Source: Escherichia phage vB_EcoM_EC001
Sequence record: MN445185.1
Direction: 5' to 3' (one strand)
DNA length: 64,000 nt
The position numbers and the translations under genes were made by a program. The notes below the pieces were generated by a model, which was not told where the DNA came from, did no database searches, and saw only the letters and a list, made by a program, of their open reading frames with translations. Shown piece by piece: positions 51,899 through 57,736 of the stretch (position 1 is its first letter; each line of letters begins with the position of its first letter).

Positions 51899-53512
51899 GT
51901 GAGAAAGCTAAACTGGGTTGACTTTTACTTGTTAAACGTCAACAAGTCCCTGGTGTCGCATTTAAAACCAGTTACAACAACAGACACCTTTCAGGGACTG
52001 ACGAAAAACTTTCACCCTGAAGGACTGTATTCAACCGAAATTTTTGGCCTCACAGGGAGCGAAGCACGAGACTCAACGTTCTCGTACATTGATATCAAAC
52101 TGGATATCATTTCGCCGACCGTTTGTTTGGCATTGTTCCAGCTGAAACAGCTGTACGAAGAAATCTGTTCCGGGAAGCGATTCGCTATCTGGAATGAGAA
52201 AGAAAAAGATTTCGAGCCGGCTCTGCCCAGTGATAAAGGTGCAGACACCGGCTTCAACTTCTTCCTACGCTACTACGAACAACTGACGCCAGGACGCAAC
52301 GAATCAATGCGTCGCGACGAGACAGTCGATTTCTTCAATAAGTTCCGTCCGGTCAGTCTCAGCCGCTATGTGCTGGTTCTACCTGCGGGATTACGTGATT
52401 TGGTCATTCGTCAGGATGGCCGCGACCAAGAAGAAGAGATTGGCGGACTCTACCGCCGTCTGATTTCTCTGGCACGTGCAGTCCCCGACCGCAGTACGCG
52501 AACGGAACTGACTGACCCGGTTCGCTGGAAGCTCCAACAAACCTTTAATGACATCTGGATGTACTTCTTCAACATCCAAGACGGTAAAGGTGGTTTTGCG
52601 CGTCGTAAAGTGACGTCACGTAAGTTAATGAACGGTACGCGTAACGTACTGTCTTCATTCTCAACCGGTTCCAAGGTCATGGGTCGCGAAGATGCGATTC
52701 GTCCAACGGATACCCGTATCGGTTTGTACCAAACCCTGAAGGCGTTACTGCCTGTGGCTCAATACCACATCCGTGAACGTTACCTCAGTAACATCCGGGC
52801 AGGGGATGGCAACTTATACGGCGTTAACACCAAAACACTCAAGCGTGAGTTCCTGGAAGTCTCCGGGCGGGTGTATGACCTTTTCACTACCGACGATGGC
52901 ATCGAAACACTCATCAACAGAATGGAAGCGCGCGAGCTTCGACATAAACCGCTGATGATTGATCCGGACCATTACGTGGCATTAATCTACCAAGACAAAC
53001 GCAGCTTCAAAATCTTTTACGATATTGAAGACCTGCCGGAAGGACGTGACCGTAAGCTTGTCCGCGGACTGAGCTTAGCGGAACTCCTCTATTTGTCAGG
53101 TTACGATATTTGGAATGACTACTTCTCGTTCATCACGCGTTATCCGGTTACGGGACGCGGTTCGACTTACTCCTCGACCATAAGATTGGAGACCACCACT
53201 TCTTCCCTCTATTTGCATGAACTGGAAGACGATTGGGTCACGTTAAAAGAGAAGGGTGCAATTAGCTTCCCTGATCGTACCGTGAAAACCTTTGTGGAAT
53301 CCATGGCACCACATCCATCCCGATTAGGTGGATTGGGTGGTGACTACGATGGTGACACCGGCTCAGCAAACTGCCCGATGTCAACCGAAGCGCTCGAGGA
53401 AAATCGGAAGTGGGTCAGTTCGAAAAACTACTGGTTTGCAACAGACGGCAGTTTCAAAATCAATCCGGTTAACAACGTGATTAAAAGAACGACTGCTGCG
53501 CTGTTGAAATGA
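51899..53512 (+). CDS. RNA polymerase beta-prime-like subunit, N-terminal-half type (537 aa, GTG start)
   Basis: AGGAG SD 7-8 nt before GTG. In canonical order: SYIDIKLDIISP (~GHIELAAPVAH), RRKVTSRKLMNGTRNVL (~LLGKRVDYSGRSVI), TRYPVTGRGS (~NRAPTLHRLG), GDYDGDTGSANCPMSTEAL (~[19 protein letters not shown]) ~50 aa before the stop. Confidence 0.65.
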   Translation: MRKLNWVDFYLLNVNKSLVSHLKPVTTTDTFQGLTKNFHPEGLYSTEIFGLTGSEARDSTFSYIDIKLDIISPTVCLALFQLKQLYEEICSGKRFAIWNEKEKDFEPALPSDKGADTGFNFFLRYYEQLTPGRNESMRRDETVDFFNKFRPVSLSRYVLVLPAGLRDLVIRQDGRDQEEEIGGLYRRLISLARAVPDRSTRTELTDPVRWKLQQTFNDIWMYFFNIQDGKGGFARRKVTSRKLMNGTRNVLSSFSTGSKVMGREDAIRPTDTRIGLYQTLKALLPVAQYHIRERYLSNIRAGDGNLYGVNTKTLKREFLEVSGRVYDLFTTDDGIETLINRMEARELRHKPLMIDPDHYVALIYQDKRSFKIFYDIEDLPEGRDRKLVRGLSLAELLYLSGYDIWNDYFSFITRYPVTGRGSTYSSTIRLETTTSSLYLHELEDDWVTLKEKGAISFPDRTVKTFVESMAPHPSRLGGLGGDYDGDTGSANCPMSTEALEENRKWVSSKNYWFATDGSFKINPVNNVIKRTTAALLK

Positions 53513-53530
53513 TACCCATAAGGCACATGT

Positions 53531-56500: not shown

Positions 56501-57736
56501 AAAAAGGACCTCGATAAACTGAAGCCAGGTGAGGCACTGTCATTTATTGATGGCTTGGTGCCGGATACCCTGATGGACGATGCTAAGCGTCAGAACTTCG
56601 TTGGGATTCAATTCGGTTCTGCGACCAGTTGTGTTGGCGCAACCACCACACCGTATCGTACCGAGCAAGAAAAGTTCGTGGCACACCGTACTTCTGTGAA
56701 GCACGCACGCGTAATCGATAAACCAGGCAAGATTGTGGAGGTTCTTAACGACCACGTTAAAATCAAATACGACGACGGAGAGGAAGAAGCTTTCCCACTG
56801 GGCCGTTGGTTCGGTCCACACGAAGGGACTTACTACCCACACACCCTGGTAACGAAATGGAAGCGCGGAGATAAACTCCCTGCCGGTGCCGTTATCACGT
56901 ACAACGAACAACACTTTGAACCAGACATCTACGATCCAACGCAGGTCAGCTTTAAAAACGGGATACTGGCAACTGTCGCTTTGATTGAAGGGGAAGAAGT
57001 AATTGAGGACTCCAACGCCATTAGTGAGCGGTTCGCTGCTAAGGCTGAAGCCGATGTTACCAAACTCAAAGAAGTCACAATGACGTTTACCCAGAACCTG
57101 TTGGAGATGGTAAAAGAAGGGGACCACGTAGACGTGGATTCAATTCTATGCACCTTCACCGACAACCTGACCGGCGATATGAGCGGGTTCAGTAAAGAAG
57201 CAGCGGAAACGCTGCGTGAGTTAAGCTCCTTTGCACCACGCTCTGGTGTTCGTGGGTTTATCGACAAAATCGAAGTGGTTTACCACGGCGAGGTGGAAGA
57301 TATGACCCCGTCTTTGGCGGAGATGGTTCGTAAATACGACCGTATACGTCGGAAGACTGCGCTGGCTCTCAAACGTGACGAGCCGAAGGACGGTCGAGTC
57401 AACGGTGATTTTCGTGTTGAGGGGGTGCCGTTAGCGTACAATAGCCTGTGTGTCCGATTCTACATCACACACCGGGTAGAGATGGCAGCAGCGGATAAGA
57501 TGGTTATTGCTAACCAGCTGAAAACGACGGTTCAGGAAGTGATGTATGGAACCAACAAAACGGAAGACGGGCAGGAACTCGACATTATCTTTGGTCGTGA
57601 TTCCGTCGACGCACGTATCGTGGGTTCTATCATGCGCATCGGAACCACCAACGCTGTCGGGTATCGTGGTGGGGAGAATATCGGACGCATCTTAGATGGT
57701 GAAGACGTCCCAGCCTTGCCGGCTAAAATCAACTAA
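53531..57736 (+). CDS. large protein (1401 aa), possible RNA polymerase subunit partner; function unverified
   Basis: 4.2-kb ORF immediately downstream of the beta-prime-like gene; only weak resemblances (…PSDLGIISGNTVDNGDVGI…); acidic insert region. Confidence 0.8.
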   Translation: MIFLKQFNQRFTVRKTDEFGRPRIIPLEKLQLPRGSIYHTIDLDQVVLAPPLTTPCFGQLEKPAMIRHHFQLPEDGIIGHPRKKPVVGQERQIFQYHRNNRRIRRMIEDGVVRSDPKVLLIENYTPMLPHYFYPDTLMSWYERLHNIQLLITNQMKTDSREYMRQNYYIIELGNVLPSFDRFKMTYNDRVKTKLERFKDFNLLWLLELFGWAYGDQQATLFDGMDMNQLSRVNFIFTHNGGFTSMNMGVIERMRKSAGGRLTDVQMGRMFYRTLTTVMTTPPSTDYEDDEFVTPEGDERVHLGEDDDVVEAVASKPEETLDIVDDEATQSDNVDDILNDHEFDEKEDLVIEAPKEDVKPTTIVVERTIPHDAVIKQEVERLAEAGRVTAKAYQFLNESSKRFVNLPNPYNPKETYGEGLTIDPKKLEVKAEPKKIERLVTDEAWAENTTDQIIRQYNQEIFPKDILGAVASSQRLGLAIHNHTVEKEISVTGNIEHHTLRIQPIGGEPTTVRFSIPALTEDGTWVANGVEYTMRRQRVDLPIRKVSHDTVALTTAYGKNFVRRSDKVVNDYGRWLTNAIITRAVDPKNTEITDAKLANVFDPLSKLPRQYTEVARRVAAFNAIGYQWSFDIKQKAAFFNEGQLADADRVELVPVAKKPRSHVIVGMDKNSQLYRVDKDKTEPLGTLAEVFGVDTSKAPREMTELSLMGKSISLGFVFSYYLGLTGMLKHFGISYEVLSVGQRIDKGQFDSIIRLQDAKIAIVCENDQQRMIVNGLDRYIKHFTTYTESEVDREDIYLNLLRDADGLTPRYIKELKLMRTAFVDDMHARILRKMGEPETFIGLLERSNELLQTDHTLPEINGDEMMFIGNQRISYHIYTAMVRAMRNYNNAPNSNRKFELTQDMVWGAINSDPSVLLAPGANPVQNIKEKDVVTMGGTGGRNRKTMVYSTREFQPSDLGIISGNTVDNGDVGITAFATNNPRYDTVDGTTFKKDLDKLKPGEALSFIDGLVPDTLMDDAKRQNFVGIQFGSATSCVGATTTPYRTEQEKFVAHRTSVKHARVIDKPGKIVEVLNDHVKIKYDDGEEEAFPLGRWFGPHEGTYYPHTLVTKWKRGDKLPAGAVITYNEQHFEPDIYDPTQVSFKNGILATVALIEGEEVIEDSNAISERFAAKAEADVTKLKEVTMTFTQNLLEMVKEGDHVDVDSILCTFTDNLTGDMSGFSKEAAETLRELSSFAPRSGVRGFIDKIEVVYHGEVEDMTPSLAEMVRKYDRIRRKTALALKRDEPKDGRVNGDFRVEGVPLAYNSLCVRFYITHRVEMAAADKMVIANQLKTTVQEVMYGTNKTEDGQELDIIFGRDSVDARIVGSIMRIGTTNAVGYRGGENIGRILDGEDVPALPAKIN

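What the first reader, a model, noticed from the sequence alone, without database searches (positions are those of the whole stretch)
51899..57736. Phage-encoded multisubunit RNA polymerase: beta-prime-like gene with DYDGD catalytic motif, truncated right after it
The 537-aa ORF carries, in the canonical order, four divergent matches to bacterial beta-prime landmarks (SYIDIKLDIISP, RKLMNGTRNVL, RYPVTGRG, GDYDGDTGSANCPMSTEAL). D[FY]DGD alone should occur by chance about 0.01 times in this window. The protein ends ~50 aa after the aspartate triad, the split-subunit architecture described for phiKZ/AR9-type jumbo phages, where a virion RNAP gene sits beside a giant lysozyme-containing gene. The 1401-aa downstream ORF may be a partner subunit, but I could not verify a beta or beta-prime C-terminal signature. 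A divergent enterobacterial version would be poorly characterised.
Basis: partly seen in the sequence, partly recalled or inferred. Interest (0 to 1): 0.75.

Follow-up and report, generated by a model that had tools for sequence, protein, structure and literature searches.

The report
Known jumbo-phage virion RNA polymerase genes

Summary
The window is an SPN3US-like Seoulvirus jumbo phage, about 98-99% identical in DNA to known records. The 537-aa ORF (51899-53512) is 536/537 identical to SPN3US gp240. The 1401-aa ORF (53531-57736) is 1384/1401 identical to gp241.

D[FY]DGD occurs once in all six frames against 0.01 expected. The gp240 family has 870 clusters at 50% identity, and the 50 aligned members are about 540 aa. 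Its three aspartates are invariant, its consensus is LGADFDGD, and it ends a median of 54 residues after the triad.

The family profile matches AR9 non-virion RNAP beta-prime-N (E 3e-21) and cellular beta-prime (E 1e-13). A pLDDT 90 model hits only beta-prime chains.

The 1401-aa protein is the beta N-terminal piece. Its model hits only bacterial beta chains (E 1e-20), preceded by about 355 non-beta residues. The beta C-terminal piece (gp218-like, 29322-29990) and the reported fifth subunit (gp244-like, 59559-60287) also lie in the window.

Thomas 2016 and Ali 2017 already showed subunit identity, virion location and essentiality. Interest is low.

The parts
51899..53512 (+). vRNAP beta-prime N-terminal subunit (SPN3US gp240 orthologue, phiKZ gp180 orthologue). 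It carries the catalytic Mg-binding triad D482/D484/D486 in GGDYDGD.
   Evidence: 536/537 identical to SPN3US gp240. Matches phrog_2986 at E 3.6e-238. Family profile vs PDB beta-prime: E 2.8e-21 to 1e-13. hhalign vs E. coli RpoC 25-521: probability 96%. AF2 pLDDT 89.7, with all top-50 Foldseek hits beta-prime. D482, D484, G485 and D486 are invariant in 50 diverse homologues.
53531..57736 (+). vRNAP beta N-terminal subunit (SPN3US gp241 orthologue, phiKZ gp178 orthologue). Residues about 1-285 are a non-beta N-terminal region, about 285-355 an acidic linker, and about 400-1401 beta-like up to the GDK..K active-site segment.
   Evidence: 1384/1401 identical to SPN3US gp241. Matches phrog_3148 at E 0. 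Family profile vs Thermus beta: E 1.2e-8, with collinear weaker segments. hhalign places residues 917-1363 (profile columns 910-1356) on E. coli RpoB 515-1107. AF2 of 356-1401 has pLDDT 76, with all top-50 Foldseek hits bacterial beta, best E 3.5e-20. 29% identical over the full length to phiKZ gp178.
29322..29990 (+). vRNAP beta C-terminal subunit (SPN3US gp218 orthologue), about 22 kb upstream of the other pieces.
   Evidence: Corresponds to SPN3US_0218 by position and length. Matches phrog_3233 'RNA polymerase beta subunit' at E 1.4e-93. hhalign of the family vs E. coli RpoB gives E 0.0024, with residues 35-182 on beta 1160-1309. That continues collinearly from the end of the gp241 match and includes the GGQRFGEME region. 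The profile found nothing in the PDB. Literature assignment as beta-C: PMC5105663.
59559..60287 (+). Reported fifth vRNAP subunit (SPN3US gp244 / phiKZ gp176 orthologue). The literature proposes it as the beta-prime C-terminal piece; homology to beta-prime was not reproduced here.
   Evidence: Matches phrog_2926 'virion structural protein' at E 1.3e-94. 30% identical to phiKZ gp176, E 3e-33. hhalign vs E. coli RpoC gives E 0.58, so no support. Membership of the complex rests on SPN3US genetics and mass spectrometry (PMC5105663, PMC5694885).
44748..51869 (-). Divergently transcribed 2373-aa tail protein with an SLT lytic transglycosylase domain (SPN3US gp239 / phiKZ gp181 counterpart). It is a conserved neighbour, not part of the polymerase.
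   Evidence: Pfam SLT PF01464 E 1.3e-9 at residues 1984-2072. Matches phrog_3201. In the same position in SPN3US and in phiKZ, where gp181 is annotated as a tail-associated endolysin.

Best explanation
The region encodes two subunits of the virion-packaged multisubunit RNA polymerase (vRNAP) of an SPN3US-like jumbo phage.

The 537-aa protein is the N-terminal third of a beta-prime homologue. It contains the clamp-core motifs and the double-psi beta-barrel whose three aspartates (D482, D484, D486) hold the catalytic magnesium. It ends, as a separate polypeptide, at the position of about E. coli beta-prime 520.

The 1401-aa protein is a beta homologue running from the beta lobe/protrusion regions to the GDK..K active-site segment. 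It is preceded by about 355 residues with no cellular counterpart.

Together with a small beta C-terminal piece (gp218-like, in the window), a beta-prime middle piece (gp42, outside the window) and gp244, they assemble into one enzyme without alpha, omega or sigma homologues. The enzyme is packaged into the head, injected with the DNA, and transcribes the early genes independently of the host polymerase.

Shown here: homology, motif conservation, fold, orthology and synteny. Taken from the literature for the near-identical SPN3US proteins: virion location, co-dependence of the five subunits for packaging, and essentiality. Inferred from phiKZ-type phages: injection and early-gene transcription.
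For: Identity with SPN3US gp240 and gp241.

Beta-prime assignment: profile hits at E 2.8e-21 (AR9 nvRNAP beta-prime-N) and about 1e-13 (cellular beta-prime); hhalign 96% with E. coli RpoC 25-521; Pfam RNA_pol_Rpb1_1 and Rpb1_2 hit in 11 and 4 of the 50 family members; the Foldseek top 50 are all beta-prime.

Catalytic triad invariant across 50 diverse members drawn from 870 clusters. AR9 nvRNAP beta-prime also carries DYDGD at this position, and the AR9 nvRNAP core is reported catalytically active (PMC7598289), so the Y variant fits an active enzyme.

Beta assignment of the 1401-aa protein. The family-invariant E1159-D1160-S1161 and K1323/K1331 align with E. coli beta EDS 813-815 and K1065/K1073.

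Beta C-terminal piece in collinear continuation.

Orthology and gene order shared with phiKZ gp182/181/180/178/176/175, whose products are annotated as structural head proteins.

Literature. Thomas 2016 (PMC5105663) assigns gp240 as beta-prime-N and gp241 as beta-N. All five subunits were detected in virions and in tailless heads, and all were lost in a gene 241 amber mutant. Ali 2017 (PMC5694885) found the same loss with gene 218 and gene 244 amber mutants, which gave intact but non-viable particles. Reviews: PMC7598289 and PMC13282480.
Against: No catalytic activity, promoter specificity or structure of any vRNAP was found. The closest PDB chain to the gp240 family is a non-virion enzyme.

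The single sequences are too divergent for Pfam and for phmmer against the PDB; only profiles and folds show the relationship.

Foldseek TM-scores are modest (0.3-0.4), as expected for multi-domain subunits modelled out of their complex.

The last roughly 80 residues of the gp241 model, which hold its half of the beta barrel, have low confidence.

The beta-prime identity of gp244 was not reproduced.
Confidence: 0.96

Rival explanations
1. The two genes belong to the second, non-virion polymerase (nvRNAP) of the phage, which is made after infection and transcribes late genes, rather than to the packaged enzyme.
For: The best PDB match of the gp240 family is the AR9 non-virion beta-prime-N, and jumbo phages of this kind encode both enzymes (PMC7598289).
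Against: That PDB match only reflects the absence of any vRNAP structure. The proteins are orthologous to and syntenic with phiKZ gp180/gp178, which are annotated as structural head proteins. SPN3US gp240 and gp241 were found in virions by mass spectrometry (PMC5105663). tblastn finds one place per phage genome, so the nvRNAP paralogue is a separate, more distant gene.
Confidence: 0.02
2. The 537-aa ORF is a decayed, truncated remnant of a full-length beta-prime gene and is not functional.
For: It stops about 50 residues after the catalytic motif, where cellular beta-prime continues for about 900 more residues.
Against: The same length and end point are kept in the 50 aligned members of the 870 clusters at 50% identity (lengths 533-561, median 541; tail median 54). 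The active-site residues are invariant. The protein is present in virions, and its packaging depends on its partner subunits (PMC5105663, PMC5694885). AR9 beta-prime-N, part of an active enzyme, ends at the same place.
Confidence: 0.01
3. The DYDGD motif and the other three landmarks are chance resemblances in an unrelated virion protein.
For: Single-sequence searches give nothing significant: Pfam finds 0 families and phmmer against the PDB gives E 0.53.
Against: Profile, profile-profile and structural comparisons are all significant and collinear over about 500 residues.
Confidence: 0.01

Closest known systems
Salmonella phage SPN3US vRNAP subunits gp240 (beta-prime-N) and gp241 (beta-N) (Thomas et al. 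2016, PMC5105663; Ali et al. 2017, PMC5694885)
   Same: Essentially the same proteins (536/537 and 1384/1401 identical) with the same gene order and neighbours.
   Different: There are 17 substitutions in gp241, 8 of them within the acidic linker at residues 280-336. Thomas 2016 lists gp240 as 519 aa, whereas the ORF with the Shine-Dalgarno-preceded GTG is 537 aa.
Pseudomonas phage phiKZ vRNAP gp180 (beta-prime-N), gp178 (beta-N) and gp176
   Same: These are orthologues: 34%, 29% and 30% identity respectively. The divergent arrangement next to the giant tail lysin gp181, with the head protease downstream, is also shared.
   Different: In phiKZ the beta-prime-N gene is interrupted inside the catalytic motif (GAD|FDGD) by a group I intron carrying the gp179 ORF. 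The window's gene is continuous, and the window has no Rfam match at all.
Bacillus phage AR9 non-virion RNAP beta-prime N-terminal subunit (PDB 7S00/7S01 chain d)
   Same: It is the closest solved structure (profile E 2.8e-21, Foldseek E 2.4e-16). It has the same split just after the barrel and the same DYDGD variant of the motif.
   Different: It is the paralogous enzyme, non-virion and late-acting, which uses a separate promoter-recognition subunit. It shares only about 13% identity.
Cellular bacterial RNAP beta-prime (RpoC) and beta (RpoB); cyanobacterial and plastid split beta-prime (gamma/RpoC1)
   Same: The conserved regions appear in the same order, with the same catalytic NADFDGD-type triad and the same beta EDS and GDK..K active-site residues.
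   Different: There are no alpha, omega or sigma homologues (PMC7598289). Beta-prime is cut into three pieces and beta into two. The phage beta-prime-N ends at about E. coli residue 521, whereas plastid RpoC1 chains of 677-680 residues run on about 190 residues past the motif. My alignments therefore put the two split points near each other but not at the same residue, although the 2020 review calls them coincident. The roughly 355-residue N-terminal extension of beta-N has no cellular counterpart.

Membership tests
Multisubunit RNAP beta-prime (catalytic double-psi beta-barrel subunit) | NADFDGD-type triad of aspartates in the barrel loop, conserved across the family | tested here: met
   GGDYDGD lies at residues 480-486. 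D482, D484, G485 and D486 are invariant in 50 homologues, with consensus LGADFDGD. The motif aligns with E. coli NADFDGD 458-464.
Multisubunit RNAP beta-prime (catalytic double-psi beta-barrel subunit) | Collinear conserved beta-prime regions N-terminal to the motif (GHIEL.., LPP.LRP, LYRR.I, KRVDYSGRSVIT, NRAPTLH) | tested here: met
   hhalign vs E. coli RpoC covers 403 aligned columns, 24-552 on 25-521, with probability 96% and E 2.9e-9. Pfam Rpb1_1 and Rpb1_2 are hit in some family members.
Multisubunit RNAP beta-prime (catalytic double-psi beta-barrel subunit) | Beta-prime fold | tested here: met
   The AF2 model has pLDDT 89.7, and its top 50 Foldseek PDB hits are all beta-prime, gamma or RpoC1 chains, E 2e-16 to 7e-13. 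The strand-helix-loop-strand pattern around 469-491 matches the barrel segment. Residue-level barrel geometry was not inspected.
Multisubunit RNAP beta-prime (catalytic double-psi beta-barrel subunit) | Template-dependent RNA synthesis | not testable with these tools
   This needs biochemistry. No vRNAP activity assay was found in the papers read.
Multisubunit RNAP beta (RpoB-like) | Beta fold and the conserved fork-loop, HDDANR, EDS and GDK..K segments in order | tested here: met
   The profile vs Thermus beta gives E 1.2e-8. hhalign places residues 917-1363 (profile columns 910-1356) on RpoB 515-1107, with E1159/D1160/S1161 and K1323/K1331 invariant. The Foldseek top 50 are all beta, best E 3.5e-20.
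phiKZ-type jumbo-phage virion RNAP (vRNAP) | Orthology and synteny with phiKZ gp180/gp178 rather than with the nvRNAP set | tested here: met
   tblastn gives E 3e-65 to PHIKZ180, and BLASTP covers the full length of gp178. The gene order gp182/181/180/178/176/175 is conserved.
phiKZ-type jumbo-phage virion RNAP (vRNAP) | Full complement of split subunits (beta-prime N, M and C; beta N and C) | tested here: inconclusive
   Beta-prime-N, beta-N and beta-C are found and supported in the window. The gp244 homologue is present, but its beta-prime homology was not reproduced. The beta-prime middle piece (gp42) lies outside the window.
phiKZ-type jumbo-phage virion RNAP (vRNAP) | Packaged in the head and required for infectivity | not testable with these tools
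   Reported for the near-identical SPN3US proteins by mass spectrometry of virions, tailless heads and amber mutants (PMC5105663, PMC5694885).

The most novel reading that the evidence does not exclude
The parts of this enzyme that have no cellular counterpart may supply what alpha, omega and sigma supply in cells, and what packaging requires. These parts are the roughly 355-residue N-terminal region plus acidic linker of the beta-N subunit, and the gp244-like fifth subunit. Their proposed roles are assembly, targeting into the prohead, passage through the tail, or early-promoter recognition. In particular, gp244 may not be the beta-prime C-terminus at all. It could be an accessory subunit analogous to the fifth, promoter-recognising subunit of the non-virion enzymes.
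Probability: 0.2. Interest if true: 0.45.

Novelty: already known. Interest (0 to 1): 0.08.

Why it matters
As a discovery it does not matter, because the genes, their subunit assignment, virion location and essentiality are published for a phage that is 98-99% identical.

The enzyme class itself remains interesting. It is a five-piece beta/beta-prime polymerase that works without alpha, omega or sigma. It is packed among the DNA in the capsid and must pass through the tail and work at once in the host. No closer relative of the beta-prime-N subunit than the AR9 non-virion enzyme was found among solved structures. The window adds no new variant that would help with those open questions.

Tried and rejected
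- **Single-sequence searches.** Pfam and phmmer against the PDB found nothing significant for either protein. The proteins are too divergent, so I moved to family profiles.
- **Full-length model.** I modelled residues 356-1401 instead, so the N-terminal 355 residues remain unmodelled.
- **Pfam on the gp241 family.** Scanning the 16 members one by one found no RNAP domain.
- **Profiles of the small subunits.** The gp218-like and gp244-like family profiles did not reach beta or beta-prime in the PDB. Both profiles were built from Seoulvirus-level relatives only. hhalign against E. coli RpoB rescued gp218 weakly, at the expected collinear position. hhalign against RpoC did not rescue gp244.
- **Sigma-70 promoters.** The scan around the genes found fewer sites than shuffled sequence gives (3 against 6.2), so it is uninformative.
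- **RNA genes and introns.** Rfam and tRNA scans of the window were empty. The window's beta-prime-N gene therefore has no intron like the phiKZ one.
- **Failed scripts.** Two Python attempts to BLAST against the phiKZ locus failed because the locus file was not yet in /data. I read the sequence directly instead.
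Full report
**What is at the coordinates.** The two ORFs are present exactly as described: 51899..53512 (+, GTG start, 537 aa) and 53531..57736 (+, 1401 aa). They are transcribed divergently from a 2373-aa ORF at 44748..51869 (-). The GTG start is preceded by AGGAG, with 7 bases between the two. D[FY]DGD occurs only once in the six-frame translation of the whole window.

**Where the window comes from.** Megablast of the region finds 62 phage records. 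The best, Salmonella phage SPLA5c, the SPFM series and SPN3US, are 98-99% identical over the full 5.8 kb and annotate both genes as RNA polymerase beta subunits. In the SPN3US record these are SPN3US_0240 and SPN3US_0241, flanked by the same neighbours. At protein level the window's products are 536/537 and 1384/1401 identical to SPN3US gp240 and gp241. Eight of the 17 substitutions in gp241 lie in the acidic linker at residues 280-336.

**Is the 537-aa protein a beta-prime piece?** The single sequence is too divergent for Pfam (no family) and for phmmer against PDB sequences (E 0.53). Even so, that non-significant alignment already placed DYDGD on the DFDGD of plastid RpoC1.

- An exhaustive HMMER search of 1.84 billion cluster representatives found 870 relatives at E <= 0.001. 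Most of the 150 best listed are about 480-565 aa.
- In an alignment of 50 diverse members (29-49% identical to the query), D482, D484, G485 and D486 are invariant, along with R241, R414 and P416. The consensus at the motif is LGADFDGD.
- The second position of the motif is F in 34 members, H in 10 and Y in the remaining 6.
- The 50 aligned members are 533-561 aa (median 541). In the 39 that carry the motif as searched, a median of 54 residues follows the triad (range 50-72). The 'truncation' is therefore the conserved native end of a separate subunit.
- The family profile hits AR9 non-virion RNAP beta-prime-N (7s00_d) at E 2.8e-21 and about a hundred cellular beta-prime chains near E 1e-13. 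Profile positions 468-528 align with E. coli beta-prime 446-507.
- The hhalign comparison with E. coli RpoC gives probability 96% and E 2.9e-9 over columns 24-552 against residues 25-521.
- Eleven and four of the 50 family members reach Pfam RNA_pol_Rpb1_1 and Rpb1_2.
- The AlphaFold model is confident (mean pLDDT 89.7). Its top 50 Foldseek matches in the PDB are all beta-prime, cyanobacterial gamma or plastid RpoC1 chains, with E 2e-16 to 7e-13. TM-scores are modest (0.3-0.4), as expected for a multi-domain subunit modelled outside its complex.
- The secondary structure around the motif (strand 469-471, helix 473-479, loop with the triad, strand 487-491) matches the barrel segment [26 protein letters not shown]. 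I did not inspect the barrel geometry residue by residue.

**What is the 1401-aa protein?** It is beta-like, not the missing beta-prime C-terminus.

- Its family profile matches Thermus beta at E 1.2e-8. Weaker collinear segments include IPALTEDGTWVANG on IPLMTEDGSFIING, the NPxxxxKxxxxxxGxGG fork region, and the GDK..K segment.
- hhalign against E. coli RpoB aligns residues 917-1363 (profile columns 910-1356) with beta 515-1107 (E 0.0068 for the single comparison). The family-invariant E1159-D1160-S1161 falls on beta E813-D814-S815, and K1323/K1331 fall on K1065/K1073.
- A model of residues 356-1401 (pLDDT 76, with the last roughly 80 residues poor) gives bacterial beta chains as all 50 top Foldseek hits, best E 3.5e-20.
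- Nothing in Pfam or the PDB matches the first roughly 400 residues. They are nevertheless alignable with phiKZ gp178.

**The rest of the enzyme.** By position and length, the ORF at 29322..29990 is the SPN3US gp218 counterpart. It matches phrog_3233, annotated as RNA polymerase beta subunit (E 1.4e-93). Its family aligns with E. coli beta 1160-1309 (E 0.0024). That is exactly where the gp241 match stops, and it includes the GGQRFGEME region.

The ORF at 59559..60287 is the gp244 / phiKZ gp176 counterpart. I could not reproduce any similarity to beta-prime: hhalign gives E 0.58, and the PDB profile search gives only a marginal hit to a 'helicase loader' chain. The beta-prime middle piece (gp42) lies outside the window.

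**Context shared with phiKZ.** tblastn with the 537-aa protein finds 322 phage records, one place per genome in all but at most two records (324 places). The hosts include Pseudomonas, Erwinia, Salmonella, Vibrio, Serratia, Aeromonas, Klebsiella, Ralstonia, Staphylococcus and Bacillus. In phiKZ the order is gp182(-), the gp181 tail-associated endolysin(-), gp180(+), gp179, gp178(+), gp177, gp176 and the gp175 head protease. gp180, gp178 and gp176 are annotated as structural head proteins.

**What the literature already says.** Thomas et al. [quoted passage not shown] They assign gp241 as beta-N with a roughly 400-residue N-terminal domain lacking homology to beta, gp218 as beta-C, gp42 as the beta-prime middle piece, and gp244 as a candidate beta-prime-C. 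All five were detected by mass spectrometry in virions and in tailless heads, and all disappear in a gene 241 amber mutant. Gene 241 is essential.

Ali et al. 2017 (PMC5694885) found that amber mutants in genes 218 and 244 also lose all five subunits and give intact but non-viable particles. Reviews (PMC7598289, PMC13282480) describe the five-polypeptide vRNAP core, the absence of alpha, omega and sigma homologues, injection with the genome, and early transcription.

**Mechanism and how much is shown.**
- *Shown here:* homology, fold, invariant catalytic residues, orthology and gene order.
- *Shown in the literature for near-identical proteins:* packaging in the head, mutual dependence of the subunits for packaging, and essentiality.
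- *Inferred from phiKZ-type phages:* the enzyme enters the cell with the DNA and transcribes early genes independently of the host polymerase.
- *Not shown anywhere I could find:* catalytic activity of a purified vRNAP, its promoter-recognition component, or its structure. The closest solved chain is from a non-virion enzyme.

**Rivals.** A non-virion polymerase is excluded by the orthology, the synteny and the published proteomics. A decayed pseudogene is excluded by the conserved length and invariant active site across 870 clusters. Chance resemblance is excluded.

**A small point of difference with the 2020 review.** The review calls the phage beta-prime split coincident with the cyanobacterial one. 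In my alignments the phage subunit ends at about E. coli beta-prime 521. Plastid RpoC1 chains run about 190 residues past the motif. The two splits are near each other but not at the same residue.

**Verdict.** The interest score is low. The most novel reading left open concerns the enzyme's non-cellular parts, the gp241 N-terminal region and gp244, whose roles remain untested.

Noticed in passing
L003 (phiKZ AF399011.1, reverse complement) 10437-11880: In phiKZ the orthologous beta-prime-N gene (gp180) is interrupted inside the catalytic motif. The annotated ORF ends ...LGAD*, and FDGDTVSFN... resumes about 1.4 kb downstream. Between them lie the gp179 ORF and a group I intron (Rfam RF00028, 92 bits, E 6e-24, at 11509-11830). 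This explains why the tblastn match to phiKZ stops at query residue 446 while other phiKZ-like Pseudomonas phages (e.g. KTN4, PA02) match to residue 517. The window's gene has no such interruption.
   Followed up: partly
window 59559-60287 (+): The gp244-like family profile gives its only notable PDB hit to a 233-residue 'helicase loader' chain (8v9t_V). The hit covers residues 115-223 on 122-231 and improves from E 0.079 with the single sequence to E 0.002 with the profile. It shows no similarity to E. coli beta-prime (E 0.58). This may be chance, but it does not fit the published beta-prime-C assignment and is unexplained.
   Followed up: partly
window 54368-54595 (gp241 residues about 280-355): This is a strongly acidic, low-complexity linker between the non-beta N-terminal region and the beta-like body. 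It holds 8 of the 17 amino-acid differences from SPN3US gp241, so it is the fastest-changing part of the protein.
   Followed up: no
window 51870-51898: Only 29 bases separate the divergent start codons of the 2373-aa tail lysin gene (-) and the beta-prime-N gene (+). The promoters for both must therefore lie inside the opposite coding sequence or further upstream. The sigma-70 scan finds fewer sites than chance in this region (3 against 6.2).
   Followed up: no
window 60350-61153 (+) and 58074-59549 (+): The polymerase genes are followed by the head maturation protease (phrog_3014, E 6e-109; the SPN3US gp245 / phiKZ gp175 counterpart) and by a gp243-like protein of unknown function. Ali 2017 reports gp243 as an essential head protein. 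The block therefore mixes ejected-enzyme genes with head-assembly genes.
   Followed up: no
protein database hits P0185, P0186, P0188, P0222-P0225, P0253-P0258 (Salmonella phages SPFM6, 7, 8, 12, 14, 15, 20 and others): Several SPFM phage records carry versions of gp241, gp218 and gp244 with high bit scores but only 3-35% query coverage by BLASTP, and shorter lengths. This looks like frameshifted or otherwise corrupted gene calls in those deposited genomes.
   Followed up: no
window 1-64000: The whole 64-kb window has no tRNA genes and no Rfam family at gathering score. GC skew turns negative across 42-54 kb, where the long minus-strand tail genes lie.
   Followed up: no
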